This document shows positions 7,507 through 52,675 of a DNA stretch of 64,000 nt, piece after piece. A program made the position numbers and the translations under genes. Where the stretch lies: assembly GCA_035577545.1 (NCBI GenBank), contig DATLVI010000009.1, positions 3,696-67,695 of the forward strand, written 5' to 3'. The notes under the pieces are model-generated. The model saw only the letters and a program-made list of their open reading frames with translations. It was not told where the DNA came from and made no database searches. Source of the stretch: Verrucomicrobiia bacterium. Its GTDB lineage: Bacteria; Verrucomicrobiota; Verrucomicrobiia; Palsa-1439. The stretch's first letter is position 1; the number at the start of each line of letters is the position of its first letter.

Positions 7507-7587
7507 CCGGCCAGTTTCCCATTTTCGGGCACAGGGCGCAAGTATCGGATGGTCACAGCTGGTAAGTTGCGCTACGCTTCCGGGCCG

Positions 7588-11172: not shown

Positions 11173-11209
11173 CCACCGTCAGACACCCGTCCTTTGTTGA
11201 ACAAATCAA

Positions 11210-11241
11210 AAGGGCGTCCCGTTTTTCAACGGGACGCCCTT
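11210..11241. terminator. GC-rich hairpin between convergent genes (AAGGGCGTCCCG-N8-CGGGACGCCCTT), likely a terminator for the minus-strand PEP-CTERM gene and possibly bidirectional.
   Basis: A perfect 12-bp inverted repeat is read directly from the sequence. There is a U-rich run on the minus-strand side. Confidence 0.5.
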
Positions 11242-11270
11242 CGAGGTATTCGTAGGTTTTACTCGCCGGT

Positions 11271-12230
11271 TTAGCTGCGACGGCGGCGTGCCAAGGTGAG
11301 CATCAAGCCAAGGCCGGCGCCGACCAACATCACCGTGGAAGGTTCGGGAACTGTAGTGAGATCTACCTTGAATAGGCTGGTATCGATCTGCGACGCGCCG
11401 GTTGCGCTGCCGGCTGGACGAATGTCGAACGTATCGTAGGACACACTTGTAATCGAAGGATCAACAAAGGTATCCGAGATGGATCCCGTGCCACCGATAT
11501 TGTCACCCGACATCGAGCTGACAACCTGCAAACCACCGGCAGTCATCGTCAGATCGTAAACGAAGGTGTACTGGGTACCAACAGTATAACCGGTCGTGCC
11601 ACTGGCAACGCCATTCGTAAGGGCCGTCCAGTTGCCGGATGTACCCAAGAACGCGCCGGAGCCAGCAAGCCCCCACTTCCTTAATTGGAAGGAATTGCCG
11701 TTGCCCATGGTTGAGGACATGTTCATGAACATGGCAAAACTATTCGTGTAATTGGCACTTTGAATACCACCGTCGGCAGTGTTTCGTGAGCCGTTTGGCG
11801 TCAGACCAAGAGCCAGCAAGAAACCCTGGCTTGTGTTGACTGTGATTGTGCCGTTCGGGGTGAACTGCCAAGTAAGCTTGAGTTCATCCCCAATATTGGC
11901 CAACGTGACCGGGGTCGTCGGCTGCGTGAAATACGTATACATCGAGAGGGAAGTTGTGGGTACGGCACCTCGCAGATCGCCAGGGCCGGCGACAGTCAAG
12001 CTCGCGCTGTTGGATGCAAACCAAGCGGACTCGAGGTTGCCATCGGAATCAGCATCGGTTGCTGATGTGCCGTTGTTCTCCGCGTACGTCGGCGACGCCG
12101 GATCCGTACGGGTACCATCCTGCCACGTATCATTGACCAGAGTAGTAGTAGTCGCATGACTGGACAGCGCCAAGGCGCACGTCGCCGTGACTATGAGTGT
12201 AACCGCTAGAAATGAATACCTTTTAGACAT
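11271..12230 (-). CDS. PEP-CTERM sorting-domain protein (exosortase substrate). Its N-terminal ~260-aa module is homologous to the N-termini of three pectinase giants.
   Basis: The C-terminus ...VPEPSTVMLVGAGLGLMLTLARRRRS is the canonical PEP motif plus transmembrane helix plus Arg cluster. The ATG at 12230 gives MSKRYSFLAVTLIVTATCALALSSHA (signal peptide); the track's upstream start is a GTG. Confidence 0.85.
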   Translation of the reverse strand: MSKRYSFLAVTLIVTATCALALSSHATTTTLVNDTWQDGTRTDPASPTYAENNGTSATDADSDGNLESAWFASNSASLTVAGPGDLRGAVPTTSLSMYTYFTQPTTPVTLANIGDELKLTWQFTPNGTITVNTSQGFLLALGLTPNGSRNTADGGIQSANYTNSFAMFMNMSSTMGNGNSFQLRKWGLAGSGAFLGTSGNWTALTNGVASGTTGYTVGTQYTFVYDLTMTAGGLQVVSSMSGDNIGGTGSISDTFVDPSITSVSYDTFDIRPAGSATGASQIDTSLFKVDLTTVPEPSTVMLVGAGLGLMLTLARRRRS

Positions 12231-12593
12231 GATCCTCACCCTTTCCCGTGTTTGAACTCGCTATACCCTTTAACATCGCAAACGCTGTAATCACTTACAA
12301 CGTTCTCCATCGGACTCTCGCCCAACTCGCTATTGGGCCGATAAACTACTTTACTAGAATATGAAATTTGCAGTGCATTTGCAAGACATACCAGCCGACC
12401 GCGCGCGCCTATTTAGTAGCATCTTGCGTCATTGAATGGTCTGGCAAGTATCGTAATGCGAAAGGGTTAAATGAGTGAGGGGTTTCATCCAAATCTCGAT
12501 CTTGCGAGCAAGCGTTTGCAGACGGCCGCAGACGTGTCCGCGGCGGTTGAAAGGATCGCCTCTACAACCGGTAACGGTGCATGTAAAAAGCAG

Positions 12594-12625
12594 AAGGGCG
12601 TCCCGCTATCCAGCGGGACGCCCTT
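12594..12625 (-). terminator. Rho-independent terminator hairpin for the 12687-15542 gene, sharing its stem sequence with the 11210-11241 hairpin.
   Basis: AAGGGCGTCCCGC-N6-GCGGGACGCCCTT, followed on the minus strand by a T-run. Confidence 0.5.
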
Positions 12626-15542: not shown

Positions 15543-16454
15543 AGACCTCGCCCTTTGATTTTGATCTCTTGTCCGGCCTCACTGACCACGTTATGCCTGC
15601 AAGGCTTTCTGCACCCGTCGTTTCAGAACAAACCCCCGTCGGAGTGTATGCTCTTGTGCCTAAAAGTATGCATTCGCTCTGCCAGGTTTGCAAGTGATTT
15701 GCAGCGGAAACCCTTGAATTTCAGGAGCGTATTCTTTCAGTGAAGAAAGATGCTAGGTCGCGTTTCCAGCGCGGTATGGGAAAGGTCTCCGTATACACGC
15801 AAGCGAACAAGTTTGGAAACGTTAGCATGTTTTCGCAAATCGACTGCGCAATTCTGTCGCAACCATCCAAAGATGGGAAGGTGGCGCACACCCCCGCGAT
15901 TTGAGGTTCTTTTGTTGACCATTCGCCTTCAGGGTGAGCTGATGAGGTGCTCTTTCTGGGGCGTAGAATGCCGGGTCAAGTTAACTGCGGATCGAACTAC
16001 ACTATTCCTTGGAAGAAGAGATCGAATGGACATGCTGAGAATAGCGCAGCGGGAGCGATTGTAGTGTATTAGATGGGAGATGCTATCGAGTTAGCCAGAA
16101 CAAATGACAAGAACATCTGCTTGGAGTATTCGCGCCGGAGTTGCGGTTTGGCGGGGGATTGTGGAGCGCCACCATGGCCGTAGATGCAGCACAACATGCG
16201 CTTCCCGAGCAGGGGTGTGCATCTGAATAAAATCGCCCACTTCGGAGCCTAGCATATCTGCTCACTGAGCGAACAAGCTCTTCAAATCCATGCAAAACGA
16301 ACCTTAAATTCTTGCAAACGCCGCGAAAAGGGTGCAGGTTAAATAGCCGTGGCCCGTTGTGTTTGGAATGAGAACGTGCCGCTAAACGGGTCGCAAAACA
16401 AGCCAAGACGGAATGTGGATGAGGTCATCTGAAACACGGAGGCACTGGAGATAT

Positions 16455-25212: not shown

Positions 25213-25250
25213 AACATTCGCGCGGATGTAGAGAATAGGAGCACGTGGAT

Positions 25251-28200
25251 ATGCAACGTATATACAGGATCATTTTGATGCTGGTTGTTTTGTTGGGACT
25301 GACCGCTTCCAATTTCGCCACCGTTTATCTTGATGACTTCTGGAGCGATGGGTTGCGCACGACCCAGAACCTGCCGACTGAGTCCGCATGGTTCGCGTCC
25401 AGTAGCGGATCGCTGGCGGCGACGCCGGGATCGATGAACCTGTCAATGGGCAGCAGCGCTATCCTGGTGCTCACGTATTATACGACCAACAGCACCAGTC
25501 CCGTGCAACTGGGTGTCGGTGACGCGCTCACAGCCACATTCAACCTGACGTTCAGCGGCCTGGCCGCATCGAATACTTCGCAGGGGTTTCGGATCGGGTT
25601 ATTTGATTTTGCCGACTCAACACTTTCTCCCAAGCGGGTGACCGCGGACGGTTTTAGCAGCAGTTCTCAGGGAGCCGGGGTGCAAGGATATGCGCTTTTA
25701 CAAAACATGAGTCCACAGTTCAACAACTCCACCCCGATGGACATTCGCAAACGTACGACTTTGACGGACAATTCTCTGTTAGGAACGAGCAGCGACTATA
25801 CTTCGCTGGGCACCGGGCCCGGGAACGTCACCGCATTTCCCGGGTTCTCGAACGGCACGAATTACATCCTGCAGATTACCCTGCAACGCACGGCTACCAA
25901 TACGATGGCGATTACGGCTTCCTGGCTGAATACCGCCAACGGAGCGACTCTGATTACGAGTGAAACCGATACCGGGGCCACGAATTTTAATTTCGATGGG
26001 ATCGGCCTGCGTCCACTGACAGCGGCTTCCACGGCGACAACAATTACTTTCCAGGAAGCAAAGGTTGAATTCATCCCGGCAAACACGCCCGCCACTGTCA
26101 CATCAGACCCGCAGGACCAGGCGGTGTTCGTGGGCCAGAACGCCTCGTTTGGGGTTCTCGCGAGCGGCTCACCGCCGTTGAGCTATCAATGGTATTACAA
26201 CGGCATAACGCTGCTGACCAATGCGACCAGTGCCACCTTGACACTCACGAATTGCCAGATTTCAGATTCCGGCCAATATTCCGTCATCGTCTCAAATACT
26301 TCGGGTGTTGATACCAGCGGCGTTGCCAATCTCTCGGTGACCATCCCAACCGCGCCCAGCATCGGCACGCAACCGCAGGGCGGAACTGTTCTGCCCGGCA
26401 GCAGCTTCAGTTTCAACGTGGTCGCGGGCGGCTCCCAGCCCCTGACCTACCAGTGGTTCCTTAACAACACGACCACAATTACCGGCGGAAACGATTCGAC
26501 ATTGACACTGACCAATATCCAACCGGGCCAGGCAGGTAATTATTCGGTGTTGGTGAGCAATCTTGCGGGCACGGCTACGAGTTCCAACGCAGTTCTAATC
26601 GTGAACACGAACCCTGTCGCGCCAGTGTTCATCAGCCAGCCATCTTCGCAGATCGCGCTGGCGGGGACGATAGTTAATTTCACTGCCGCAGCCGCCGGCA
26701 CGGCCCCGATCACGTATCAGTGGAGCAAGAACAATGTGGCGATTGCGGGTGCGACCGCCACCACGTTCAGCATTACCAATGTGCAGACTACCGACGATGG
26801 GAACTATTCCGTCACTGCCTCCAACAATGTCGGTGGGACAACTAGCGGAACAGCCCAATTGACCGTGACACCACCAGTGCCCGTGCCTCTGAGCGCCTAT
26901 AACTTGGTCGGCTTCGGCCAGGGCACCACGGGTGGCGGTGTTTTAGCGGATACAGATCCCAATTACGCGAAGGTCTTTACCGCGATCGATCTTGCCAACG
27001 CGCTCATCAGCAAGACGGTCAGGGTCATCGAGATCATGAACGATCTGAACCTTGGTTATAATGAAATCCCGGCAGCCGCCAAGGCCACGAGCGAGCCATT
27101 CCGCGCAGATTCCACGCCGCTGCTGCACCCCGTCTTGTTGACGACCGGGGTCAGTCTCATCGATATCCAAAAGAAAAACGGGCTGACAATCTTTTCCGCC
27201 AACGGCTCGACCATCCGCCACGCGCACCTGAACATCAAGGCTGGCTCCAACATCATCGTCCGCAATCTTAAGTTCGACCAACTGTGGGAATGGGATGAAG
27301 CTACCAAGGGCAATTACGACAAGAATAATTGGGACTTCATGACCATCGGTGACTCTGGTTCCATCACCGGCCTGTGGATTGATCACTGTACGTTTACGAA
27401 AGCCTATGATGGCATCGTGGACATCAAGAACGGGAGCGCGGGGATTACCATCTCCTGGTGCAAGTACACGGGTGATGACGGCGCGACCAACAATAACAGT
27501 TGGGTGTGGCAGCAGATCAACGCGCTCGAATCAAACAAGGCGAGTTACGTAATGTACAACACCCTGCGCACCGCCGGGTTTAGCAGTACTGACATAGTCA
27601 CCGTGATTCAGGGGCACGACAAGACCCATTTGATCGGCGCCAATGACATGGACCCGAACAATGCTTTGCACACCGTCACACTGCACCACGAGTGGTTCAT
27701 CAATCCATGGGATCGGTTGCCCCGTTTGCGCGGCGGTAATGTGCATGACTACAACATCTATGTGGACGACACGGCGGGAATCGCCGCCAAACATCTTCGC
27801 GACTCGCACCCATTCAGCAGTTCCTATAGCTTCAATCCATTCCTTAACGGAAGTATCTCCACCGAGAATGGGGCCACGCTGGTGGAGAAATCGGTGTACA
27901 TCGACTGCATCACACCACTGCGGAACAACCAGACCGATCCTTCGAACCCGGCATACACCGGGAAGATCCTGGCGCTGGATACAATCTATGTGAACCCGGC
28001 GGATGGCTCCGTGACGCGCGGCAACAGCACCGACCCGGGCAGTCAACTGGGCCCATTCCAGGCGCCAATCATTCCTTTCTCGTGGAATCTGGCCGGCAAC
28101 CAACTGCCGTACACTTATTTCCCGGATGATCCGAGCCAGTTACAGGGCATCGTCACCAGTCCCACGGCAGGAGCTGGCGCGGGAGTATTGACCTGGGCCA

Positions 28201-28904
28201 AGACAAACTGGCTGGTGACGTCCTATGCGCCGACGGCGCCGGTCATTGTCGCGGGCCCTCAGAACCAGAGTGTTTCCCAGAATACCACCATCAGCTTCAC
28301 GGTTGTGGCCGGGGGCAGCGCGCCATTGAGCTATCAGTGGTATTTCAATACCAACAGTCCGATTGCCGGTGCCACCAATTTCCTATTTACGCTCGCGAAT
28401 ATCCAGGCGACCAACGCCGGGATCTATTCGGCCATCGTCAGTAATAGTGTTGGCTCGACCAATAGTGCCGGTGCCACGCTTACGGTAAATGTGCCAACGA
28501 ATACGGATCCCTTTGCGGCGTGGCAGAACCAGTATTTCACACCGGACGAACTGGCCAACCCATCCTTCAGCGGGCCGGACGCTGATCCGCTGGGCAAGGG
28601 AATGAGCAACACCAACCAATTCCTTGCCGGTCTCAATCCGACCAATCCGGCGTCGGCGCTGCGGATCATCTCCGCAGTGAAGCAGGATAGTGATGTTTCG
28701 ATCTCATGGACAACGGCGGGCGCCCACACCAATGCTGTTCAGGCGACCGGCGGTGACGGGAGTGGCGGTTACTCAACCAACTTTACTGATATCAGCGGAC
28801 CAATCATCATCACGGGTAGTGGGGACGCAACCACCAATTACGCGGATAGTGGCGGTGCGACCAACAACCCAGCACGTTACTACCGCGTCCGGTTGGTGCC
28901 CTGA
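25251..28904 (+). CDS. Giant secreted modular PL1 pectate lyase (shared N-terminal module, 3 Ig-like domains, PL1 catalytic domain, Ig-like, conserved C-terminal domain).
   Basis: ATG at 25251 gives MQRIYRIILMLVVLLGLTASNFA; the track start is a GTG at 25245. PL1 motifs: WIDHCTF, DGIVDIK, ...HHEWFINPWDRLPRLRGGNVHDYNIY. The C-terminus ...FAAWQNQYF...DPLGKGMSNTNQFLAGLNPTN...ARYYRVRLVP. Confidence 0.85.
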   Translation: MQRIYRIILMLVVLLGLTASNFATVYLDDFWSDGLRTTQNLPTESAWFASSSGSLAATPGSMNLSMGSSAILVLTYYTTNSTSPVQLGVGDALTATFNLTFSGLAASNTSQGFRIGLFDFADSTLSPKRVTADGFSSSSQGAGVQGYALLQNMSPQFNNSTPMDIRKRTTLTDNSLLGTSSDYTSLGTGPGNVTAFPGFSNGTNYILQITLQRTATNTMAITASWLNTANGATLITSETDTGATNFNFDGIGLRPLTAASTATTITFQEAKVEFIPANTPATVTSDPQDQAVFVGQNASFGVLASGSPPLSYQWYYNGITLLTNATSATLTLTNCQISDSGQYSVIVSNTSGVDTSGVANLSVTIPTAPSIGTQPQGGTVLPGSSFSFNVVAGGSQPLTYQWFLNNTTTITGGNDSTLTLTNIQPGQAGNYSVLVSNLAGTATSSNAVLIVNTNPVAPVFISQPSSQIALAGTIVNFTAAAAGTAPITYQWSKNNVAIAGATATTFSITNVQTTDDGNYSVTASNNVGGTTSGTAQLTVTPPVPVPLSAYNLVGFGQGTTGGGVLADTDPNYAKVFTAIDLANALISKTVRVIEIMNDLNLGYNEIPAAAKATSEPFRADSTPLLHPVLLTTGVSLIDIQKKNGLTIFSANGSTIRHAHLNIKAGSNIIVRNLKFDQLWEWDEATKGNYDKNNWDFMTIGDSGSITGLWIDHCTFTKAYDGIVDIKNGSAGITISWCKYTGDDGATNNNSWVWQQINALESNKASYVMYNTLRTAGFSSTDIVTVIQGHDKTHLIGANDMDPNNALHTVTLHHEWFINPWDRLPRLRGGNVHDYNIYVDDTAGIAAKHLRDSHPFSSSYSFNPFLNGSISTENGATLVEKSVYIDCITPLRNNQTDPSNPAYTGKILALDTIYVNPADGSVTRGNSTDPGSQLGPFQAPIIPFSWNLAGNQLPYTYFPDDPSQLQGIVTSPTAGAGAGVLTWAKTNWLVTSYAPTAPVIVAGPQNQSVSQNTTISFTVVAGGSAPLSYQWYFNTNSPIAGATNFLFTLANIQATNAGIYSAIVSNSVGSTNSAGATLTVNVPTNTDPFAAWQNQYFTPDELANPSFSGPDADPLGKGMSNTNQFLAGLNPTNPASALRIISAVKQDSDVSISWTTAGAHTNAVQATGGDGSGGYSTNFTDISGPIIITGSGDATTNYADSGGATNNPARYYRVRLVP

Positions 28905-29088: not shown

Positions 29089-32000
29089 ATGAGGCATACC
29101 TTTTTAAGGGTTTTTGTTATCGGCACCATGGTCGGGCTCGGTCTATCCGCCCATGCCAACCTCCTGGTCAACGACACGTGGCAGGACGGTACGCGGACCG
29201 ATCCCACCGCAGCGAATGGATACGCCGAGAATAACGGAGTGGTCGGCACTGATGCCGATAACGATGGAGATCTGGAGTCTGTTTGGTACAATGCGAACGG
29301 TACATTGACTGTGAGTACCGGTCACTTGGTCGGAACAATGCCGGCCAATGGCACTTCCTCGGCCTCATGGACAACCTACTTCACGCCGGAGGCTAGCCCG
29401 GTCACTTTGGCCGGCGCAGGGGACGCGATTAAGGTTACATGGGTATTTACTCCTTCCGGCGTTAACGGGAGCAGCACCAGCGGAAGCGGTTTGCGACTCG
29501 CTCTCGTGGATAGCCCATCAGGTGCACGACTTACCGGGGACGGCAGCCCGGGCAGCAGCACCTACGCGGGTTATGGCATGTTTATGAACATGGCCACGAC
29601 GTTGGCCAGTAGTAGCCCGTTCCAGCTAATCAAGCGAGTCGCTCCCGGGACAAGCGCTGCGTTCCTCTCCTCCAGCAGCACGCTTACCTGGGGCGCATTG
29701 GGGAATGGTGCAAGCAGTGGCAATACCGGATACGCCAGCGGCACGCAGTACACCTTCGTGATGACAATCACGCGCAACGCAACGAACGCGGTGGATATCA
29801 CGGCCACGATGACGGGTGGAAGTCTCAACAACACAGGTAGTGCCTCGGTTTCTGTTACCGATACCACCCCCAGCAGCTTCACGTACGATACTTATGGCCT
29901 TCGCCCATCAAGCGCCAACGATTCAGCCACTTCGTTTGATACCACTCTATTCAAGGTCGAGTTCATTCCCGGGGCGACTCCGGCTTCGATTGACCTGGAT
30001 CCGCAGGACCAGTCTGTGTTTGTCGGTGATGACGCGCAATTCAATGTCCAGGCCAGCGGGACAGCGCCGTTGTTCTATCAATGGTATTACAACACCAACT
30101 CCGCGTTGAACATCCAGACCAATTCCACGTTGACAGTCATGAATGCCCAGACTTCCGATGCGGGTGGGTACTCCGTTCTGGTGTCCAACGCGTATGGCGC
30201 GGTGACCAGCGCAGTGGCTCAATTGACTGTCAACCTGCCGGTCGCCCCGTCGATCAGCACCCAACCACAGAACCAGCTCAATATCCTACCTGGGGCGACG
30301 GCTTCGTTCACCGTGGTTGCGGGCGGCTCCGATCCGTTAAGCTACCAGTGGTATTTCAACACCAACACGCCGGTGGCGAATGCGAATGATTCCATTTTGA
30401 CGATCACCAACGTACAGGCTGGGAATGTGGGCACCTATTCTGTCGTCGTGAGTAATGCGGCCGGCTCCGTCACCAGTTCCAATGCGGTTCTTACTATCAA
30501 CACAAATGGCGTGGCGCCGGTTTTCAATACGGAACCAGCCTCGCAGGTTGTCCTGGTCGGCGGCACGGCCAGCTTCACTGCAGTGGCGGCGGGTACCGCG
30601 CCGATCAGTTATCAGTGGAACAAGAATGGGGTTCCCGTACCCGGTGCGACGTCAACCACGTTGACCCTCACGAACGTTTCGGCCGCCGATAACGGCAACT
30701 ACACTGCCACGGCTTCAAACAGTGTCGGGGTCACAACCAGCGATCCGGCCCAACTTAGCGTGACGACGTCAGTGATCGTGCCGAACAGCGCGTACAATCT
30801 GACCGGCTTTGCGCGGACCACCACGGGTGGCGGTGTAATCGCCACGAACGACCCCGCGTATCGACAGGTGTTTACGCCGCTTGATTTGGCCAATGCCGTT
30901 CTTTCCGCCAATAAGACGGCGGGCTCCGTGAAGGTCATCGAGATCATGAACGACCTGAACTTGGGTTGGAATGAAATCGGCTCTACCGTGCAAAATCTGT
31001 CCAGCACTCCGTTCCGCGCGCACAACCCACCGCAACTGCACCCGGTGCTCCTAGTCACGGGCATGAGCTTGATGGACATCAAGCCCAAGGGCGGGCTGAC
31101 CATCTTCTCCGCCAACGGTTCCACGATCAGGCATTGCAACTTCAATGTCAAAGGTTGCACCAACATCATCATCCGCAATCTGAAGTTCGATGAAAACTGG
31201 GAATGGGATGAAGCGACGAAAGGTCAATACGACAAGAACGACTGGGATTTCATCACCATCGGTAACGGCGGCGTGGTGTCGAACATCTGGATCGACCACT
31301 GCACCTTCACCAAGTCGTATGACGGTATCGTTGACACGAAGCATGGCTGCTCGGCGCTTACCTTTTCCTGGTGCAAATACACCGGTGACGATGGGGCCAC
31401 CAATCCCAACAGCTTTGTTTGGCAGCAGATCAACAAGCTCGAGTCCAATAAAACCAGCTATGCGTTCTATAATTTCTTGCGCAGTAATGGGTTTAGCACT
31501 ACCGACATCGTCACGGTTATACAAGGGCATGACAAGACTCACCTCGCGGGCTCGAACGATCTCGACCCACTGAATGCGACTCTCTCAATGACCTTCCACC
31601 ACCTGTGGCTCATGAACGTGTGGGACCGTTGCGTGCCGCGGTTGCGAGCCGGCAATGTGCATGATTACAACCTCTACGCGGACGACATCGTATTACTTGC
31701 CGCCAAGAACCTGCGCAATGCGCGTGCCGCCGCGATGAGCACCGCAAACCAAAATACCCTGAACAACACGTACAGCTTCAATCCACCGATGAATGGTGCG
31801 ATCTCGACCGAGAATGGCGCCCTCCTGGTTGAGAAATCGGCGTACCTCGAATGTCTTACCCCGCTGCGGAATAACCAGACCGATCCTTCCAATCCAGCTT
31901 ACACGGGCAAGATCCTGGCACTCGACACAATTTATCGGAAGAACGGCGTGGTCACGCGCGGCAATAGTACCGATCCGGGCAGCCAACTAGGTCCGTTCCA

Positions 32001-32829
32001 GGCCCCGATCATTGCCTTTTCATGGAATCTCCCCGGTAATCAACTGCCCTACGCGTATACCATGGACGATCCGAGCCAGTTGCAGGCGATCCTCACCAGC
32101 CCCACGGCCGGCGCGGGAGCCGGGGTGCTGACATGGAACAAGACCAACTGGATGATCACAGCTTATGCGCCAAGCGCCCCGGTAATCGGGAGTTGTCCGA
32201 CAAGCTTGATCGCCACAACGGGCCAAAATGTATCTTTCTCCGTGTTCGCCGGCGGCAGCGCACCCGTGACGTACCAATGGTACTTCAATACCAACACGCC
32301 GATCGCTAATGCGACCAATACCGTTCTTACGCTGAATAGCGTCCAATCAACCAATGTCGGCATCTATTCGGTAATTGCCAGCAATAGCGCAGGCACTGCG
32401 GGTTGTTCCGCCACGCTTGACATCAGCTCGTCGCTGTCGGCATTCCAGCAATGGCAATTGGCGCACTTCGGTTGCACCAATTGCCCGAACGCGGATGCCT
32501 CGGCGGACCCGGACGGTGACGGAATGAACAATCAAGCGGAATTTCTGGCCGGCACGGATCCGAATAGTACGGCCTCATCCTTGCAGATCATCTCCGTCGT
32601 GCCGCAGGGGGCAGGCGATGTGCTGATTACGTGGAAGACCGCAGGTGGCTTCACCAACGCGGTGCAAGCGACGGCGGGCGATCCGAACAGTGGCTTCAAT
32701 ACCAACTTCACGGACATCAGCGGTGCACTCATTATTTCCGGTAGTGGGGATGTAACGACGAACTATCTGGACAGTGGCGGTCTCACCAATGCCCCGTCGC
32801 GTTATTACCGTGTCCGGCTCGTGCCGTAA
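29089..32829 (+). CDS. Giant secreted modular PL1 pectate lyase, paralog of the 25251 gene with the same architecture. Its N-terminal module is closest to that of the PEP-CTERM protein.
   Basis: Signal peptide MRHTFLRVFVIGTMVGLGLSAHA. The N-terminus NLLVNDTWQDGTRTDP... parallels LVNDTWQDGTRTDP in the PEP-CTERM protein. PL1 motifs: WIDHCTF and ...HHLWLMNVWDRCVPRLRAGNVHDYNLY. The C-terminus ...AFQQWQLAHFGCTNC...DPDGDGMNNQAEFLAGTDPN...SRYYRVRLVP. Confidence 0.85.
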   Translation: MRHTFLRVFVIGTMVGLGLSAHANLLVNDTWQDGTRTDPTAANGYAENNGVVGTDADNDGDLESVWYNANGTLTVSTGHLVGTMPANGTSSASWTTYFTPEASPVTLAGAGDAIKVTWVFTPSGVNGSSTSGSGLRLALVDSPSGARLTGDGSPGSSTYAGYGMFMNMATTLASSSPFQLIKRVAPGTSAAFLSSSSTLTWGALGNGASSGNTGYASGTQYTFVMTITRNATNAVDITATMTGGSLNNTGSASVSVTDTTPSSFTYDTYGLRPSSANDSATSFDTTLFKVEFIPGATPASIDLDPQDQSVFVGDDAQFNVQASGTAPLFYQWYYNTNSALNIQTNSTLTVMNAQTSDAGGYSVLVSNAYGAVTSAVAQLTVNLPVAPSISTQPQNQLNILPGATASFTVVAGGSDPLSYQWYFNTNTPVANANDSILTITNVQAGNVGTYSVVVSNAAGSVTSSNAVLTINTNGVAPVFNTEPASQVVLVGGTASFTAVAAGTAPISYQWNKNGVPVPGATSTTLTLTNVSAADNGNYTATASNSVGVTTSDPAQLSVTTSVIVPNSAYNLTGFARTTTGGGVIATNDPAYRQVFTPLDLANAVLSANKTAGSVKVIEIMNDLNLGWNEIGSTVQNLSSTPFRAHNPPQLHPVLLVTGMSLMDIKPKGGLTIFSANGSTIRHCNFNVKGCTNIIIRNLKFDENWEWDEATKGQYDKNDWDFITIGNGGVVSNIWIDHCTFTKSYDGIVDTKHGCSALTFSWCKYTGDDGATNPNSFVWQQINKLESNKTSYAFYNFLRSNGFSTTDIVTVIQGHDKTHLAGSNDLDPLNATLSMTFHHLWLMNVWDRCVPRLRAGNVHDYNLYADDIVLLAAKNLRNARAAAMSTANQNTLNNTYSFNPPMNGAISTENGALLVEKSAYLECLTPLRNNQTDPSNPAYTGKILALDTIYRKNGVVTRGNSTDPGSQLGPFQAPIIAFSWNLPGNQLPYAYTMDDPSQLQAILTSPTAGAGAGVLTWNKTNWMITAYAPSAPVIGSCPTSLIATTGQNVSFSVFAGGSAPVTYQWYFNTNTPIANATNTVLTLNSVQSTNVGIYSVIASNSAGTAGCSATLDISSSLSAFQQWQLAHFGCTNCPNADASADPDGDGMNNQAEFLAGTDPNSTASSLQIISVVPQGAGDVLITWKTAGGFTNAVQATAGDPNSGFNTNFTDISGALIISGSGDVTTNYLDSGGLTNAPSRYYRVRLVP

Positions 32830-32941
32830 TACGGCTTGTCCAAGCAACATGGCATACATGCGCCTGCATCAACCGCTCAGCAGAAAGCAGCACGGGTGGT
32901 GGACAAGGCTGGCCTTCGCCCCGATGCCGGGTTGGCCGATC

Positions 32942-35900: not shown

Positions 35901-36862
35901 ATGCGCCCTCGCAGGCCAGCTCGGGGTCGATCAAGCTGATGGTCACCCGAAACGGGCCGTTTGCCGCCAGCCTGAGCCTGGGGGGCGTGCGCAGCGTCTT
36001 CAAGGGACAGTTCGATGCGTCCGGCAACGCGACCAACACGGTGACACGTACCGGGCTGGATTCCTTGCAGGTGATCCTGCATTTGGATCTGGTCGAAGGC
36101 ACCGACCAGATACGAGGGAGTATCTCGGATGGGGAATTTACCTCGGAGGTGCTGGCCGACCGCCAGATATTCAGCGCCACGGCCCGTTGTCCGCTGGCCG
36201 GTACCTTTACAGTGGTGCTGGAGCCGCCCGAAGGAGACGATCCGAGCCTTCCGGAAGGATTCGGTTACGGGACATTGACAGTGACGCCAACCGGACTGGG
36301 TCGAGTGAGTGGGGTGCTGGCGGACGGAACGAAGCTCAACGTCCGGGTGCCGCTGTCCAAGCACGGCACGTTGCCGCTGTACCAGGTGCTGTACAACAAT
36401 CACGGCGCGTCGATTGGGTGGATGACGTTCGGAACCAACAGCTCGGTCGGGGCGAGGGTGGACTGGTTCCGTCCTCGGATGGCCGGTTCAGCGTATTTCC
36501 TAGCGGGGTTCACGACCAACGTGACGCTGCTGGGCCAGAAATACCTCTCACCGGTAGACAACGGGCCGAGTGCGGCGGGCAACCGCCAGGTGACGCTGGG
36601 CGGCGGCAACCTGGTCAGCAGTATCGTGGAGACAGTGCTGGTCACGGACGTCGGCGCGGTGATTGTGCCGCCGCCAAACCCGGAGAACCTGCAAATGAAG
36701 ATCCAGACGGCGACTGGACAGTTTAGCGGGAGCTTCACGCATCCGGGGCTGGGTCGGACAGTGAATTTCAACGGGCTGGTGCTGCAGCTCGACGGATCGG
36801 GGGCCGGATACTTCCTCGGTTCCAACACCAGCGGTTTTGTCGTCTTTGAGCCGACGCCGTGA
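32942..36862 (+). CDS. Giant secreted modular GH28 polygalacturonase (GH28, PATR-like, PKD, BACON/Ig-like, Ig-like, Fn3, and a ~340-aa C-terminal module of a second type).
   Basis: Start chosen at MRCVLVWLALAGLAQG (signal peptide); upstream ATG/GTG alternatives run to 32774. GH28 motifs: PNTDGMDL, GDDNIEIGG and GHGLSIGS. Fn3 unit: ...SVPINLTATTIATNQIDLSWSASSDNGSGVASYRLYRDGEQ... The C-terminal module YNGLAIQTNAPSQ...GAGYFLGSNTSGFVVFEPTP is homologous to the C-terminus of the GloVer protein at 55883-58135. Confidence 0.8.
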   Translation: MRCVLVWLALAGLAQGDPSLPIIANQTFVVTNAIYGAIGDGLTNNAAAIQSAINDASANGGGTVEIPANGTLSTYLSGPINLASGINLQIDGGAMLQMLPRNVTTNGSTIIPKWPSASTPFILGSSLTDVAITGSGIIDGQGTNWWFPKASTRPNFIQFTHSTRVLIQGVTLQNPPTFHIMLKNTNIGLTIQNITINTPASSPNTDGMDLASTNVLVRNCFISAGDDNIEIGGSSAAAADITVSNCTFGAGHGLSIGSLVNGAGGGVHDLIVSNCTFNGTRNGIHMKSDRDIGGVVQNLQYLDITMTNVSYPIAIYSYYDSIGSPSTFNISPFMASTDTVQTVTSTTPIWRNITISNLTVFSTSGKNIVGLIWGLPEMLVSNLTLYHVNIAAPTKSFDIYNAQGIQIIDSNLTAPSSTNTLTLYNAQVTITNAVASTNVVSLGGLAVPPTNNVLAFVNAVAAITDTNMLGTGSITLDNSTLTLTQDSVTIPNNLRALSASTLVISSGSNTLSGTLSGPGPLTISNNVAFSSSAVLQYAPGTNSEPTVVSGDLALDGTLNIADGGGLTNGTYVLFSYGGTLTTNGSPTILTLGVVANPSFFNYTVDVGSLGAVRLLVTFAAPIADFTADPTNGVLPLTVMFTDASIGSITNRFWDFGDGVTTNTVATSVAHTYNAAGSDTVQLIVSGQGGVSTNTRVNYITAACAYTLSATNASFGVTGGTNLVTVSAADSCPSWTAVSNDSWIQIVGGSVNAAGDAAIVYAVLPSSSTTLRAGTMTIAGQTFTVNQPGDTIAPAVALTTPAAGLVSGAVAVSATATDNVEVAKVEFYRDGNFLLGTISSPPYVISFNTTTLADGPHCFSARAYDLAGNTAVSSNCVIVDNNAPSVPINLTATTIATNQIDLSWSASSDNGSGVASYRLYRDGEQIATTIHTTYSDNSLAAKTVYCYVVAAQDELGHVSASSADACAQTFVTAVPALGRYNGLAIQTNAPSQASSGSIKLMVTRNGPFAASLSLGGVRSVFKGQFDASGNATNTVTRTGLDSLQVILHLDLVEGTDQIRGSISDGEFTSEVLADRQIFSATARCPLAGTFTVVLEPPEGDDPSLPEGFGYGTLTVTPTGLGRVSGVLADGTKLNVRVPLSKHGTLPLYQVLYNNHGASIGWMTFGTNSSVGARVDWFRPRMAGSAYFLAGFTTNVTLLGQKYLSPVDNGPSAAGNRQVTLGGGNLVSSIVETVLVTDVGAVIVPPPNPENLQMKIQTATGQFSGSFTHPGLGRTVNFNGLVLQLDGSGAGYFLGSNTSGFVVFEPTP

Positions 36863-36894
36863 TTTCCTCGAGAATAGAGAATGGAAACGTGAAC

Positions 36895-39800
36895 ATGAGA
36901 ACGGAATCCCGACGCAAAGTTGTTCCGATCCTCGCCGCGCTATTTGGCCTGGTATTACCCGTTCGCGCCACTGTTCTTCTGGACCAGACCTCTTGGACAA
37001 CGACCACGCGCAGGACCCAGAGTCTGCCAACAAGGTCGGCGTGGTTTGCGTCCAGCACAGGGTCCTTGAGTGTTTCGGGCGGTGCGCTGCGCATGGTCGT
37101 GGGCACCAGCTCCGGTGCAGGTATCAGCTACTTCACCGCCAACAGCAACACTCCACCCGTGCAGTTGAATGTTGGGGATACGCTGGCCGCGACCTTCCGA
37201 TTCACGTTCAATGGAGTTCCACCGCTTGGGAGCAGTTCGCAGGGTTTCAAGATTGGCTTGTTCGATTCCGCGGATGGGAGCAACGTCCCCAAGCGAGTGA
37301 CTGCGGATGGGTCCCCGTTCAGCAGCGGTGGACAGGGTACGTTCGTGGAAGGATATGCGTTGTTTCAGAAAATGTACGTGGTCTTCGCTGACAATCAGCC
37401 GATTGATATTCGCAAACGCACTGCCATCGGGGACGCTTCCTTGCTGGGTGCCAGTGCCGACTACACCTCGCTGGCCAAAGGTGGCCTCACCAATACGTTT
37501 GCCGGTTTCAGCAACCTAACGCAATACACATTCCAAATCCTTCTGCAACGCACGAACCTGAGTTCGATGGCGATCGCCATGACCTGGTCGAACCTCGCCA
37601 ACGCCGCAACGCTTTCCCTCTCCACAGCCGACAACACTGCTACCAACTTCAACTTCGATACGATCGAGTTTCGTCCGGCCAACAATACGCAGGCGCCCGC
37701 CACGAACCTGTTCCAAGAAGTGAAAGTCGAAGTGAGTTCGGCGCCCGTCGCTCCAGCGATTCTCGCGGATCCTCAGGATCAGGCGCTTTCTTCAGGGCAG
37801 ACCGCCACGTTCAGTGCGGTCGTCAACGGCACGCTGCCGCTGAGCTACCAGTGGTATTTCAACGACACAAATACACCCATTGGTGCTGCCTCCAGCGTCA
37901 ATTTCCCGCCGGCACACACGCCCGTCGCCAATCCCTCGTTGACGCTCACGAACGTCCAATTGACGGACGTCGGGGATTATTTTGTCGTCGTAACGAATTC
38001 CTCCGGTTCCGTGACAAGCGCGGTAGCGAACTTGACGGTGACGGAAGCCGCCCCAACGATCACCACGCAACCGCAAGATCTGACTGTCATTCCTACTCAA
38101 CCCACTGCATTCAGCGTCGTGGCCGTCGGCAGTGAACCGTTGAGTTATCAGTGGTACTACAACACGAATTCGTTGCTGACGAATGCTACGTCCAGCACTT
38201 TGACAATTTCCAACGTGCAACCCAGCGACGCGGGCATTTACTCCGTCATCGTCAGCAACCCGATCGGCACCGCCGTCAGTTCCAACGCCGTACTGACCGT
38301 CAATACCAATCCCGTGACGCCGATATTCATTTTGCAACCGGTAGGGTTTACCGCGCGGGTTGGAGACAATGCCAGCTTCAGCGCGTCAACCATCGGGGCT
38401 CAGCCGATCAGTTACCAGTGGAAGGCCAACGGGACGCCGATTGTCGGCGCTACTTCGACCACGATAAACCTGCCTGGCATCCAATTGACTGATGCCGGTA
38501 CCTACACTCTTGTCGCGAGTAATGCAATCGGCTCGACATCCAGTTTGAACGCGACCCTTACGGTGCTGCCCCGGACACCGCCGCTGCCGGTGATTCCCAC
38601 CAACACCTTCAACATCCTGGACTTCGGTGGGTTGGGGAATGGTGTCTCAAACAACGCGGCGGCTATTCAAAGCGCGATCAATACCGCTGCCGGGGCAGGC
38701 GGCGGCACAGTCATCGTGCCGTCGGGCGGCACGCTCAGCACGTACCTGAGCGGCCCGATTATCCTTTCCAGCAGCATCAATCTGGAGGTGGACAGCGGCG
38801 CGACGCTAAAAATGCTTCCGCGTTTCGCGACAGCCACCGTCACCAACTGGCCCAGCCCGAGTCTGCCGCCATTCATCAGCGCATCCGGCCTGAACGACAT
38901 CGAGATCAGCGGGTCAGGAACCATCGACGGGAACGCCGGCTTCGGCTCCACGAATTGGTGGCAATCGCCCACGCTCGATGAGTCGTTGCGCCCGCATATG
39001 ATCGACTTCAGCGGCTGCACCCGCGTTCTGATCCAGGGTGTGACGCTGCAGAACCCACCGGTGTTTCATATGTTGCTCAAGGGTAACAACGTGAGCGTGA
39101 CCGTCCAAAACATTACGGAAAACACCCCGGGGAATTCACCCAATACGGACGGGATGGACGTGGGCTCGACCAATGTTCTGGTCCAAAACTGTTCCATCAG
39201 TGTCGGGGATGACAACATCCAGATGGGAAGCAGCGCCGCTCCCGTGGCGGACATGACCGTCTCGAATTGCACTTTTGGCACCGGCCATGGCGTGTCCATC
39301 GGTAGCCCCACACAACGCGGGGTGCATGATTTGTTGGTCAGCAATTGCACGTTCAATGGCACCGATAACGGGATCCGTCTGAAATCCGACCGGGACATTG
39401 GTGGGCTGGTCGAGAACCTCCGGTACATCGACATTACGATGACCAACGTGGATTATCCGATCATTGTGTACAGTTTCTACGACTCCATCGGAACGCCCAA
39501 CAACATCATGCCGTCCAATGCGGCTGCAAACGCAGCCCAACCGATTGTTGATAATACTCCCATCTGGCGCAACATTCTCTTCAGCAATCTCACGGTGACG
39601 GCGACCACGGGCAATAATATCGCGGGCATCCTGTGGGGACGACAGGAGATGGTCGTTTCCAACGTGACCCTGTACAACGTGAATTTCGCGGCCCCCACCA
39701 AGACTTTTGACATCTACAACGCGCGGGGCATTCGGATCATCAACTCCAATCTCACTGCACCCAGCAGCACCAACACGCTGACGCTTTATAATGCGGAAGT

Positions 39801-40653
39801 CCTGATCACCAACTCGGCACCGGGGATCAATGTCGTGACGTTGGGCGGCCTGGCAAAGGGAGGGACCAACAACAACCTGAGCTTCTTCAACACGCAGGCC
39901 ACGATCACTGATACCAACATGCTCGGCACCAATCCATTGCTTACATTGGGCAGCAGCACGTTCACGGTGAGTAACAGTCTGAATCTGGGTGGCACATCGA
40001 CGCTAAACTTCGGGTTGGGTACGAACGCGACTGAAATTGTTGTTATCGGCAATCTCTCGGTGAGCGGCACACTCAACATCACCGATGCCGGTGGTTTCAC
40101 CAACAACACGTACACGCTCTTCACCTACGGCGGGACGCTGACCTACAATGGCATCACCATGGGCACGACGCCGAACGCGAATTTCACATATACCGTTTCC
40201 ACCAACACGATCGGACAGGTGAACCTGGTTGTTGGCAGCAACATGCCGCCATCGGATCCGTTCACCGCGTGGGAAAACCAGTATTTCACGTTGGCTGAAC
40301 TCGGTACCTCGTCGTTTAGCGGGCCAGGCGCTGATCCACTGGGCAAGGGGATGAGCAACACCAACCAGTTTTTGGCGGGCTTGAATCCGACCAACAGCGC
40401 GTCGGCGTTGCGGATTACCGCAGTGACGCCCGAAGGTCACAATGTCACCATCACTTGGACGACTGCCGGTGTGAGAACCAACGCTGTGCAAGCAAGCACC
40501 GGCGACGGCAACGGTGGCTATGGCACGAACTTTAGCGACATCAGCCCTCCGATCATCATCACCGTCGGCGGAGATGCGACCACCAACTACGTGGACAGCG
40601 GCGGGGCGACCAACAGTCCGGCACGTTACTACCGTATCCGGCTCGTGCCGTAG
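36895..40653 (+). CDS. Giant secreted modular GH28 polygalacturonase (shared N-terminal module, 4 Ig-like domains, GH28, PATR-like, conserved C-terminal domain).
   Basis: ATG at 36895 gives MRTESRRKVVPILAALFGLVLPVRA (signal peptide). GH28 motifs: PNTDGMDV, GDDNIQMGS, GHGVSIGS and IRLKSDRDIGG. The C-terminus ...FTAWENQYF...DPLGKGMSNTNQFLAGLNPTN...ARYYRIRLVP. Confidence 0.85.
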   Translation: MRTESRRKVVPILAALFGLVLPVRATVLLDQTSWTTTTRRTQSLPTRSAWFASSTGSLSVSGGALRMVVGTSSGAGISYFTANSNTPPVQLNVGDTLAATFRFTFNGVPPLGSSSQGFKIGLFDSADGSNVPKRVTADGSPFSSGGQGTFVEGYALFQKMYVVFADNQPIDIRKRTAIGDASLLGASADYTSLAKGGLTNTFAGFSNLTQYTFQILLQRTNLSSMAIAMTWSNLANAATLSLSTADNTATNFNFDTIEFRPANNTQAPATNLFQEVKVEVSSAPVAPAILADPQDQALSSGQTATFSAVVNGTLPLSYQWYFNDTNTPIGAASSVNFPPAHTPVANPSLTLTNVQLTDVGDYFVVVTNSSGSVTSAVANLTVTEAAPTITTQPQDLTVIPTQPTAFSVVAVGSEPLSYQWYYNTNSLLTNATSSTLTISNVQPSDAGIYSVIVSNPIGTAVSSNAVLTVNTNPVTPIFILQPVGFTARVGDNASFSASTIGAQPISYQWKANGTPIVGATSTTINLPGIQLTDAGTYTLVASNAIGSTSSLNATLTVLPRTPPLPVIPTNTFNILDFGGLGNGVSNNAAAIQSAINTAAGAGGGTVIVPSGGTLSTYLSGPIILSSSINLEVDSGATLKMLPRFATATVTNWPSPSLPPFISASGLNDIEISGSGTIDGNAGFGSTNWWQSPTLDESLRPHMIDFSGCTRVLIQGVTLQNPPVFHMLLKGNNVSVTVQNITENTPGNSPNTDGMDVGSTNVLVQNCSISVGDDNIQMGSSAAPVADMTVSNCTFGTGHGVSIGSPTQRGVHDLLVSNCTFNGTDNGIRLKSDRDIGGLVENLRYIDITMTNVDYPIIVYSFYDSIGTPNNIMPSNAAANAAQPIVDNTPIWRNILFSNLTVTATTGNNIAGILWGRQEMVVSNVTLYNVNFAAPTKTFDIYNARGIRIINSNLTAPSSTNTLTLYNAEVLITNSAPGINVVTLGGLAKGGTNNNLSFFNTQATITDTNMLGTNPLLTLGSSTFTVSNSLNLGGTSTLNFGLGTNATEIVVIGNLSVSGTLNITDAGGFTNNTYTLFTYGGTLTYNGITMGTTPNANFTYTVSTNTIGQVNLVVGSNMPPSDPFTAWENQYFTLAELGTSSFSGPGADPLGKGMSNTNQFLAGLNPTNSASALRITAVTPEGHNVTITWTTAGVRTNAVQASTGDGNGGYGTNFSDISPPIIITVGGDATTNYVDSGGATNSPARYYRIRLVP

Positions 40654-52581: not shown

Positions 52582-52675
52582 GTGGTGGCCCCACAACAGA
52601 GGCCTCCCTCCCAAGCGCGCTGATTTGGCTTCTCCCGGGCCAACTTATTTGCTATAAGTAAGGAGACTCGTGCTG

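What the first reader, a model, noticed from the sequence alone, without database searches (positions are those of the whole stretch)
11271..12230. N-terminal ~260-aa module shared by the PEP-CTERM protein and three pectinase giants (same cargo module, alternative anchors)
The whole mature part of the PEP-CTERM protein (LVNDTWQDGTRTDPASPTYAENNGTSATDADSDGNLESAWFASNSASLTV...FMNMSS...GTQYTFVYDLT...FDIRPAGSATGASQIDTSLFKVDL) is homologous to the N-terminal module of the PL1 giant at 29089, where LVNDTWQDGTRTDP is identical and the module continues to ...FDTTLFKVEFIP. More distantly it matches the N-termini of the 25251 and 36895 giants (DDFWSDGLRTTQNLPTESAWFASSSGSL...FRIGLFD...FQEAKVEFIP and ...FQEVKVEVSS).

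One version of this probable beta-sandwich (lectin or CBM-like) module is therefore displayed alone on the cell via exosortase/PEP-CTERM. Others are fused to catalytic domains and carry the RYYRVR C-terminal module. This is direct evidence of module shuffling between two surface-targeting systems. It also makes the N-terminal module a candidate pectin- or polysaccharide-binding domain.
Basis: seen in the sequence. Interest (0 to 1): 0.6.

Follow-up and report, generated by a model that had tools for sequence, protein, structure and literature searches.

The report
Unnamed lectin-fold module linked to pectinases
A roughly 265-residue lectin-like domain with no Pfam, NCBIfam or PDB sequence match occurs once as a small exported PEP-CTERM protein and three times at the front of giant pectin-degrading enzymes, and across many uncultured soil and water bacteria it sits in or beside pectinase genes, which makes it a good candidate for a new pectin-recognition module.

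Summary
The mature part of the PEP-CTERM protein (11271-12230, minus strand) is homologous over about 265 aa to the N-termini of the giants at 29089 (45% identity, E 8e-71), 25245 (E 8e-22) and 36859 (E 2e-25). Shuffled controls reach at most 24 bits against 76-199 real. The window holds exactly four copies.

The family has at least 687 clusters, in Verrucomicrobiota, Planctomycetota and a few Acidobacteriota. Its commonest form is the standalone PEP-CTERM protein. Fused forms mostly carry enzymes for acidic polysaccharides (PL1, GH28, CE8, PL6, PL7, PL9). About 16 of 21 independent standalone loci have pectin genes within 10 kb.

The best reading is a non-catalytic pectin-recognition module. 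It is used alone as an exported, probably surface-retained binding protein, or fused as an enzyme-targeting domain. Binding is inferred, not shown, and a catalytic jelly-roll role is not excluded.

"Alternative anchors" is only half established. PEP-CTERM is verified. The RYYRVR domain is an unnamed Fn3-like C-terminal domain of unknown function.

The parts
11271..12230 (-). CDS of the standalone PEP-CTERM protein: 319 aa plus stop from the ATG at 12230, with an alternative in-frame GTG at 12239
   Evidence: ORF list. GGTGAGG lies 5 nt before the ATG. 100% identical to public protein P0001, 319 aa, named 'PEP-CTERM sorting domain-containing protein [Verrucomicrobiae bacterium]'.
12153..12230 (-). 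Sec-type signal peptide (MSKRYSFLAVTLIVTATCALALSSHA)
   Evidence: Read from the sequence: a basic N-terminus, a hydrophobic core and an S-H-A site. No signal-peptide predictor was available.
11349..12152 (-). Lectin-fold module, clade A copy (268 aa): the whole mature body of the solo protein
12030..12056 (-). DxDxDG-type putative Ca2+-binding loop (DADSDGNLE) inside a 19-aa insertion that the 25245 and 36859 copies lack
   Evidence: Alignment A1, coordinates. The motif is present in 100 of 147 solo modules and 21 of 85 fused modules. Ca2+ binding is inferred from the motif only.
11274..11351 (-). PEP-CTERM sorting signal (VPEPS, then a hydrophobic helix, then RRRRS)
   Evidence: PF07589 E 2.6e-5, 24.6 bits (cutoff 20.7); TIGR02595 23.8 bits (cutoff 16).
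29158..29976 (+). Module, clade A copy, directly after the signal peptide of the 1246-aa pectate-lyase giant (29089..32829). It carries the DADNDGDLE loop at 29251-29277.
   Evidence: (E 8e-71). The catalytic region matches pectate lyase 5gt5_A at E 3.5e-132. Four Ig domains are found.
25317..26081 (+). Module, clade B copy (no DxDxDG loop), at the N-terminus of the 1219-aa PL1 giant (25245..28904)
   Evidence: (E 8e-22). PF00544 E 3.4e-13.
36967..37743 (+). Module, clade B copy, at the N-terminus of the 1264-aa GH28 giant (36859..40653)
   Evidence: (E 2e-25). PF00295 E 4.2e-47.
32509..32826 (+). C-terminal xYYRV domain of the 29089 giant, about 106 aa. The equivalent domains lie at 28584-28901, 40333-40650, 43543-43860, 24892-25209, 21566-21883 and 12690-13007 (minus strand), with a divergent tail on 52670-55540.
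11209..11242 (-). Terminator-like hairpin 29 nt after the solo gene's stop codon
   Evidence: 15-bp stem followed by a T-rich tail.
12594..12625 (-). Near-identical hairpin upstream of the solo gene, after the 951-aa gene. Together with the downstream hairpin it makes the solo gene look monocistronic.
   Evidence: The AAGGGCGTCCCG arms occur only at these two sites.

Best explanation
The region encodes an autonomous, secreted domain of about 265 residues with the concanavalin-A-like (L-type-lectin/glucanase) beta-sandwich fold. It belongs to an unnamed family found mainly in Verrucomicrobiota and Planctomycetota.

It most likely acts as a non-catalytic recognition module for pectin or another acidic polysaccharide.

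- In its commonest form, as at 11271-12230, it is a small protein exported by Sec, held in the inner membrane by its PEP-CTERM helix, and processed by an exosortase. It would then end up on or near the cell surface and capture pectin next to the cell's pectinases. This would be functionally analogous to the surface glycan-binding proteins of Bacteroidota polysaccharide utilisation loci.
- In the fused form (29089, 25245, 36859) the same module sits at the tip of a stalk of Ig domains. There it would target PL1 or GH28 catalytic domains to the substrate.

Shown: the homology, the fold class, the PEP-CTERM signal, the family-wide architectures and the genomic linkage to pectin genes.

Inferred: carbohydrate binding, pectin specificity, Ca2+ dependence of the clade A loop, and surface location.
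For: - Homology and copy number.
- The module behaves like a binding module:
  - It is appended to many different catalytic domains. Of 44 long members, 12 have PL1, 4 GH28, 3 PL6-type, 2 PL7-type, 2 Pel9A-like and 1 GH88, with 31 carrying Ig linkers. Giants with CE8 or GH28 carry it internally.
  - It occurs in tandem with no catalytic domain. P0121 has three copies, and P0122 and P0123 are module-Ig-module-tail.
  - It occurs as module plus tail only (P0252, P0264) and as module plus dockerin plus PEP-CTERM (P0193).
- Gene neighbourhood: about 16 of 21 independent solo loci have pectate lyase, GH28, CE8, KduI or UxaE genes within 10 kb, often adjacent.
- The window itself is a pectin-utilisation locus: UxaE, KduI, a KduD-like SDR, GH88/105, CE8, GH28 and PL1.
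- The same conserved residues (W10, W44, Y74, R123, Y139, N144, Y195, D231, D240, R245) are kept in solo and fused copies, so they probably share one function.
- The conserved Arg, Asn and aromatic residues suit binding of a carboxylated sugar. This last point is an inference.
Against:
- At 265 aa the domain is large for a CBM.
- The set of conserved Arg, Tyr, Asn and Asp residues could equally be a catalytic site.
- Five solo loci have no pectin gene nearby.
- Some fused partners are unrelated to pectin: RCC1 in 5 and fn3 in 7, and NHL repeats in P0125.
- No exosortase lies in the window, and the destination of PEP-CTERM proteins is not settled.
Confidence: 0.58

Rival explanations
1. The module is a new catalytic domain, a beta-jelly-roll polysaccharide lyase, hydrolase or esterase acting on pectin or another polyuronate. 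On this reading the solo PEP-CTERM protein is a small exported enzyme and the giants are bifunctional.
For: - Arg, Tyr, Asn and Asp residues are more than 90% conserved across a family whose members are only about 30% identical.
- The size (265 aa) is typical of jelly-roll enzymes.
- The standalone form dominates and sits beside pectate lyases, as an accessory enzyme would.
Against: - No His, Lys, Gln or Glu reaches 80% identity across the 256 aligned modules, so neither the PL7-type Arg/Gln/His/Tyr set nor the GH16 ExDxxE motif is present. Q109 is common in solo copies (133 of 148) but only 41 of 88 in fused copies.
- The 95%-conserved Tyr139 is Phe in the window protein and its close relatives.
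- Tandem arrays and module-only proteins lacking any other domain are typical of lectins and CBMs.
- The best structural matches are non-catalytic.
- The domain is fused to at least seven different catalytic families.
Confidence: 0.2
2. The module binds the bacterium's own envelope or exopolysaccharide, or another protein. It would then be a cell-retention or assembly domain, not a substrate-binding one. Its linkage to pectinases would only reflect that these are the main secreted proteins of these organisms.
For: - PEP-CTERM systems are classically tied to exopolysaccharide production (own knowledge: Haft et al. 2006; see also PMC12188702).
- Some partners are not pectin-related (RCC1, fn3; NHL).
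- A dockerin-bearing variant exists.
- In the window's lineage the solo gene lies beside two PMT_2/TPR membrane glycosyltransferase-like genes.
Against: - Partners and neighbours are heavily biased to enzymes for acidic polysaccharides across three phyla.
- A retention domain would be redundant in a protein that already has a PEP-CTERM signal and nothing else.
Confidence: 0.15
3. The similarity is a compositional artefact of Ser/Thr/Asn/Gly-rich secreted proteins, or the region is a signal-peptide-adjacent propeptide.
For: All four regions start 1-4 residues after a signal peptide and are rich in S, T, N and G.
Against: - E-values from 8e-22 to 8e-71 with composition adjustment.
- Shuffles reach at most 24 bits against 76-199 real.
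- Twelve columns are at least 95% identical across the 256 aligned modules.
- The globular model is confident.
- Internal and tandem positions occur in other proteins.
Confidence: 0.01

Closest known systems
L-type (legume-like) lectin domains: legume lectins, ERGIC-53, Emp46p/47p, VIP36, and the calnexin/calreticulin globular domain
   Different: Sequence identity is 7-14%. No hit to any lectin Pfam model at E up to 1 in 108 members. The sugar- and metal-binding residues could not be compared. The taxa and context differ (bacterial pectin loci).
YesU (PDB 1oq1, DUF1961), an uncharacterised galectin-like protein of Bacillus subtilis
Carbohydrate-binding modules of CAZymes, and the surface glycan-binding proteins (SusE/F-like SGBPs) of Bacteroidota PULs
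   Same: It works like them. It is an autonomous non-catalytic-looking fold appended to many CAZyme families via Ig linkers. It is sometimes tandem. It also exists as a separate exported protein encoded in the utilisation locus.
   Different: No match to the CBM families covered by Pfam (CBM_4_9, CBM_6, CBM_35, F5_F8_type_C, CBM77 and others). It is larger than known pectin-binding CBMs. Export uses PEP-CTERM/exosortase, not a lipoprotein anchor. Binding is untested.
Beta-jelly-roll polysaccharide lyases (PL7, PL14, PL18, PL20, PL36) and GH16 glycosidases
   Different: The canonical catalytic motifs are not conserved, and there is no sequence-profile hit.
NCBIfam 'choice-of-anchor' domain families and named PEP-CTERM protein families (for example NF038120, NF038129, PepA)
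   Same: The concept is the same: one extracellular domain found with different C-terminal sorting tails. The solo protein weakly hits several PEP-CTERM family models.
   Different: Those hits come from the tail and disappear when it is removed: 0 families for the 268-aa body. All are far below their cutoffs (27 bits against 65-80). No choice-of-anchor model is hit.

Membership tests
PEP-CTERM / exosortase substrates (PF07589, TIGR02595) | C-terminal PEP motif followed by a transmembrane helix and a basic cluster | tested here: met
   VPEPSTVMLVGAGLGLMLTLARRRRS. PF07589 24.6 bits (cutoff 20.7); TIGR02595 23.8 bits (cutoff 16). 97 of 108 aligned relatives also hit PF07589.
PEP-CTERM / exosortase substrates (PF07589, TIGR02595) | N-terminal signal peptide | tested here: met
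   Read from the sequence. No predictor was run.
PEP-CTERM / exosortase substrates (PF07589, TIGR02595) | An exosortase (EpsH/Xrt) gene in the same genome | not testable with these tools
   None among the window's ORFs. The rest of the MAG could not be scanned.
Concanavalin-A-like lectin/glucanase superfamily (fold level) | Two antiparallel sheets forming a jelly-roll sandwich, structurally superposable on members | tested here: met
Concanavalin-A-like lectin/glucanase superfamily (fold level) | Sequence-profile match to a curated member family | tested here: not met
   No Pfam hit for the body at E up to 1 in 108 members. No NCBIfam hit. No PDB sequence hit.
L-type lectins | Conserved Ca2+/Mn2+ site and sugar-binding loops (Asp, Asn, Gly and an aromatic residue) | tested here: inconclusive
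   A DxDxDG loop is present in clade A only. Conserved Asp, Asn and aromatic residues exist but could not be superposed on lectin sites, because no coordinates or structural alignments were returned.
Carbohydrate-binding module (CAZy sense) | Discrete fold within, or associated with, carbohydrate-active enzymes | tested here: met
   Fused to PL1, GH28, PL6-type, PL7-type, Pel9A-like and GH88 proteins and to CE8 giants. Confident autonomous fold.
Carbohydrate-binding module (CAZy sense) | Demonstrated carbohydrate binding without catalytic activity | not testable with these tools
   Needs biochemistry.
Carbohydrate-binding module (CAZy sense) | Sequence membership of an existing CBM family | tested here: not met
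   No hit to any Pfam CBM model. CAZy/dbCAN-only families could not be searched.
PL7-like jelly-roll lyases / GH16 | Conserved catalytic residues (PL7: Arg, Gln, His, Tyr; GH16: ExDxxE) | tested here: not met
   No His, Lys, Gln or Glu reaches 80% identity in the family. Y139 is Phe in the window's clade. Arg, Tyr and Asn are conserved, so catalysis by a different constellation is not excluded.
YesU / DUF1961 | Sequence-profile match to the family | tested here: not met
Known C-terminal sorting domains, for the RYYRVR module | Match to a curated sorting-signal model (T9SS CTD, LPXTG, PEP-CTERM, GlyGly-CTERM and others), or a transmembrane segment | tested here: not met

The most novel reading that the evidence does not exclude
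The module founds a new beta-jelly-roll family of pectin- or polyuronate-active enzymes (a lyase or esterase), not a binding module. Verrucomicrobiota and Planctomycetota would then export it by two different C-terminal sorting routes: PEP-CTERM/exosortase, and a still-unknown machinery that recognises the xYYRV Fn3-like domain. The window would thus expose both a new CAZyme family and a new secretion tag.
Probability: 0.15. Interest if true: 0.7.

Novelty: new member of a known kind. Interest (0 to 1): 0.45.

Why it matters
Soil and freshwater Verrucomicrobiota and Planctomycetota are major degraders of plant polysaccharides, yet how they capture polymers at the cell surface is largely unknown. 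They lack the SusC/D-type systems of Bacteroidota.

This module is:
- a well-defined family of at least 687 clusters at 50% identity;
- confidently foldable;
- absent from Pfam, NCBIfam and the PDB sequence set;
- repeatedly tied to pectate lyases, GH28 and CE8.

It gives a concrete, small (27 kDa), easily expressed candidate for a new pectin-binding CBM or surface glycan-binding protein. It also gives a handle on what PEP-CTERM cargo actually does in these phyla. Its co-occurrence with an equally unnamed xYYRV C-terminal domain on many secreted enzymes points to a sorting signal worth testing.

Tried and rejected
- Sequence-level assignment failed everywhere. Pfam was tried on the four window proteins and on 108 members at E up to 1. 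NCBIfam hits are all carried by the PEP-CTERM tail. PDB profile searches with A1 and A2 gave only weak, apparently spurious Q-beta coat protein hits.
No annotated AlphaFold-database neighbours could be obtained.
- The search for related loci with alignments A1 and A2 failed for lack of a conserved 7-10 column stretch. A narrower clade A alignment worked, so the genome survey is biased to clade A.
- Literature searches found no description of the module or the tail. The term sets were PEP-CTERM + pectin + Verrucomicrobia; exosortase + choice-of-anchor; Verrucomicrobia + pectate lyase + CBM; and RYYRV/RFYRV motifs.
- Model coordinates are not exposed, so conserved residues could not be mapped onto the fold. 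This was the planned test of binding site against active site.
- Rejected readings: a compositional artefact, a propeptide, and the window's solo gene as the direct source of the 29089 module.
- No sigma-70-like promoter was found upstream of the solo gene. This is uninformative for this phylum.

Full report
**1. The observation**

The ORF at 11271..12239 on the minus strand encodes 322 aa from a GTG start. The ATG at 12230 follows a GGTGAGG ribosome-binding-like site. It gives the 319-aa product that is 100% identical to the public protein P0001, annotated [quoted passage not shown].

The protein has three parts:
- a signal peptide of 26 aa;
- a 268-aa body;
- a C-terminal VPEPS, hydrophobic helix and RRRRS tail, which passes the curated cutoffs of PF07589 and TIGR02595.

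The body aligns end to end with the first roughly 260-275 mature residues of three giant enzymes:

| Partner | Identity | E-value |
|---|---|---|
| 29089 | 45% | 8e-71 |
| 25245 | 30% | 8e-22 |
| 36859 | 32% | 2e-25 |

The giants also match each other: 25245 against 36859 gives 49% identity and E 2e-93, and 29089 against 25245 gives 36% and E 6e-48.

The proteins are rich in Ser, Thr, Asn and Gly, so I shuffled each partner 300 times. The real scores are 199, 76 and 87 bits and the shuffled maximum is 24 bits.

An HMM of the four copies, searched against the six-frame translation of the whole window, finds exactly these four.

**2. What the module is not**

It matches no Pfam or NCBIfam model. 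The four window proteins hit only PEP-CTERM, Ig, PL1, GH28 and TSP3 models outside the module. Of 108 aligned family members scanned at E up to 1, 97 hit PEP-CTERM and none hit any domain family over the body. The weak NCBIfam hits to named PEP-CTERM families vanish when the tail is removed. Profile searches of all PDB sequences find nothing credible.

It is not a propeptide either. In other proteins it is internal (residues 1267-1536 of 3945; 498-752 of 1761) or present two or three times.

**3. Fold**

With a 108-sequence alignment, AlphaFold2 gives an all-beta model with mean pLDDT 96.8 and pTM 0.93.

Foldseek ranks L-type lectins first, at E about 1e-6 and TM 0.4-0.5. Identities are 5-14%, so this places the fold but not a family.

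**4. The family**

An exhaustive HMM search of 1.84 billion representative proteins finds 687 clusters at E up to 1e-3 and 190 at E up to 1e-30.

Among the 266 members fetched:
- 169 are short proteins with a PEP-CTERM tail, and 147 of the scored modules are of this solo form;
- 39 modules sit in multidomain proteins that end in an xYYRV motif;
- 13 are module plus a spacer of about 90 aa plus PEP-CTERM. In P0193 the spacer is a Dockerin_1 domain;
- three are module plus xYYRV domain with no enzyme domain. P0252 and P0264 are module and tail only, and P0238 also carries an Invasin_D3 domain;
- P0122 and P0123 are module-Ig-module-tail with no catalytic domain, and P0121 has three tandem copies.

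A neighbour-joining tree splits the family in two:
- Clade A has 181 modules, 141 solo and 30 fused. It contains the window's solo protein and the 29089 copy, and often carries a DxDxDG loop.
- Clade B has 75 modules, 58 fused and 7 solo. It contains the 25245 and 36859 copies, and the loop is deleted.

Tail type follows the phylogeny but has switched at least 13 times, against about 39 expected for shuffled labels.

The 29089 module is 61-66% identical to solo proteins of other genomes but only 45-48% identical to the window's own solo protein. The shuffling is therefore real but older and broader than the window suggests.

A scan of GTDB species representatives, biased to clade A, finds 28 loci. 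All are MAGs: Verrucomicrobiia, Opitutae, Limisphaerales, Akkermansiaceae, Pirellulales and other Planctomycetota, plus two Acidobacteriota.

**5. Link to pectin**

The window is a pectin-utilisation locus. It encodes:
- UxaE, an AraC regulator, an MFS transporter, a KduD-like SDR, KduI and GH88/105;
- a CE8 giant, GH28 giants, two PL1 giants and a further pectate lyase homologue (9buj_A, E 6e-37);
- two small GH28 enzymes and a CE8.

Fusion partners of the module elsewhere are mostly enzymes for acidic polysaccharides. Of 44 long members, 12 carry PL1, 4 GH28, 3 chondroitinase-B-type (PL6), 2 Alginate_lyase2 (PL7), 2 Pel9A-like and 1 GH88. Opitutae giants of 2035-4939 aa with CE8 or GH28 carry it internally.

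For standalone genes I examined about 21 independent loci. About 16 have a pectate lyase, GH28, CE8, KduI or UxaE homologue within 10 kb, often as the immediate neighbour. Five have none: L019, L030, L031, L032 and L034, three of them on contig stretches shorter than 16 kb.

No matched background rate was computed. A rough expectation for a 20-kb stretch in a pectinolytic genome is a few percent (my estimate), so the enrichment is large.

**6. Mechanism**

The behaviour is that of a lectin or CBM:
- it is appended through Ig linkers to many catalytic families;
- it is multiplied in tandem;
- it exists alone;
- it always directly follows a signal peptide or lies inside extracellular proteins.

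The residues conserved across both clades, and equally in solo and fused copies, are W10, S42, W44, Y74, F75, R123, G138, Y139, N144, Y195, D231, D240 and R245. Arginines, an asparagine and aromatics are what one would expect for a uronate-binding site, but this is an inference.

No His, Lys, Gln or Glu reaches 80% identity across the family. Tyr139 (95% conserved) is Phe in the window protein and its close relatives. Both points argue weakly against PL7- or GH16-type catalysis.

I therefore favour a non-catalytic pectin-recognition module (confidence about 0.58). The solo form would act like a surface glycan-binding protein and the fused form like a targeting CBM.

A new jelly-roll enzyme (about 0.2) and a self-envelope or EPS-binding retention domain (about 0.15) remain open. 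I could not map residues in 3D because coordinates are not exposed.

**7. The "alternative anchors" claim**

The PEP-CTERM signal is verified. However, the window has no exosortase gene. The literature I read states that the route across the outer membrane and the final attachment of PEP-CTERM proteins are unresolved (PMC12188702).

Its invariable C-terminal position on diverse secreted enzymes suggests a sorting or retention tag. That is an inference, and nothing shows that it is an anchor.

**8. Gene structure**

The solo gene is bracketed by two nearly identical GC-rich hairpins followed by T-rich tracts: 12594-12625 upstream and 11209-11242 downstream, both on the minus strand. It therefore looks like a separate transcription unit.

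In syntenic loci (L005, L008) it is preceded by a large repeat protein with no Pfam hit. In L005, L008 and L009 it is followed by two PMT_2/TPR or TPR membrane-protein genes.

**9. Verdict**

The module is an undescribed family within a well-known fold and functional kind, so I rate it a new member of a known kind. The pectin link is strong but circumstantial, and the second "anchor" is unproven. Interest is moderate. The module is a clean, testable candidate for a new CBM or SGBP family in poorly studied polysaccharide degraders, but it is not conceptually surprising.

Noticed in passing
window 12690-13007(-), 21566-21883, 24892-25209, 28584-28901, 32509-32826, 40333-40650, 43543-43860, and the end of 52670-55540: Eight secreted proteins in the window end in the same domain of about 106 aa finishing ...RYYRVRLVP (IFYRVHITYP on the phospholipase-C-like protein). 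These include pectinases, a 951-aa repeat protein and that phospholipase-C-like enzyme. The domain has no Pfam or NCBIfam model, 648 relatives and an Fn3/Ig-like predicted fold. It is a candidate new C-terminal sorting or retention domain of Verrucomicrobiota.
   Followed up: partly
window 11209-11242 and 12594-12625 (minus strand): Two nearly identical 14-15 bp GC-rich hairpins with T-rich tails (arms AAGGGCGTCCCG) flank the solo gene. The arm sequence occurs nowhere else in the 64 kb without a mismatch.
   Followed up: partly
window 7009-9489 and 9490-11172 (+): Two adjacent TPR-rich proteins lie convergent with the solo PEP-CTERM gene. The second (9490-11172) hits PMT_2 and looks like a GT39/83-type membrane glycosyltransferase; the first hit only TPR models. 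The arrangement is conserved in L005, L008 and L009. They might glycosylate the Ser/Thr-rich exported proteins.
   Followed up: no
window 16413-17174 (+); loci L006, L007, L013-L036: A prepilin-type N-methyl / DUF1559 (SBP_bac_10) gene lies near module genes in 21 of 36 loci examined. In Planctomycetota-type loci the order is sugar regulator, DUF1559, a small CarboxypepD_reg protein, then the module gene. DUF1559 is a hugely expanded family, so chance co-occurrence was not excluded.
   Followed up: partly
window 12687-15542 (-): A 951-aa Gly/Thr/Asn-rich repeat protein with no Pfam hit and an RYYRVR tail lies directly upstream of the solo gene. Unannotated proteins of 621-679 aa occupy the same position in syntenic loci L005 and L008.
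   Followed up: no
window 11718-11744 (-), residues 163-171 of the solo protein: The window's solo protein and its close relatives (P0003, P0004, P0006, P0008, P0011) have Ser-Phe where 94-95% of the family has Gly-Tyr (positions 138 and 139 of the module).
   Followed up: partly
window 40666-43863 (+): A 1065-aa protein with no Pfam catalytic hit is a clear pectate lyase homologue (PDB 9buj_A, E 6e-37). Homologues of it are the commonest immediate neighbours of solo module genes in Planctomycetota loci.
   Followed up: partly
window 32774-36862 (+): The 1362-aa ORF has a GH28-like region by sequence resemblance to the 22003 giant (no profile search was run on it). It overlaps the end of the 29089 gene by 56 nt, so its real start is probably further downstream. 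Unlike its neighbours it lacks the RYYRVR tail and ends ...VVFEPTP.
   Followed up: no
loci L006, L034, L036: GH28 or module genes are split over two or three reading frames. This is probably frameshift error in long-read MAG assemblies. In L006 the public gene calls there differ in strand and boundaries from the GH28 frames.
   Followed up: no
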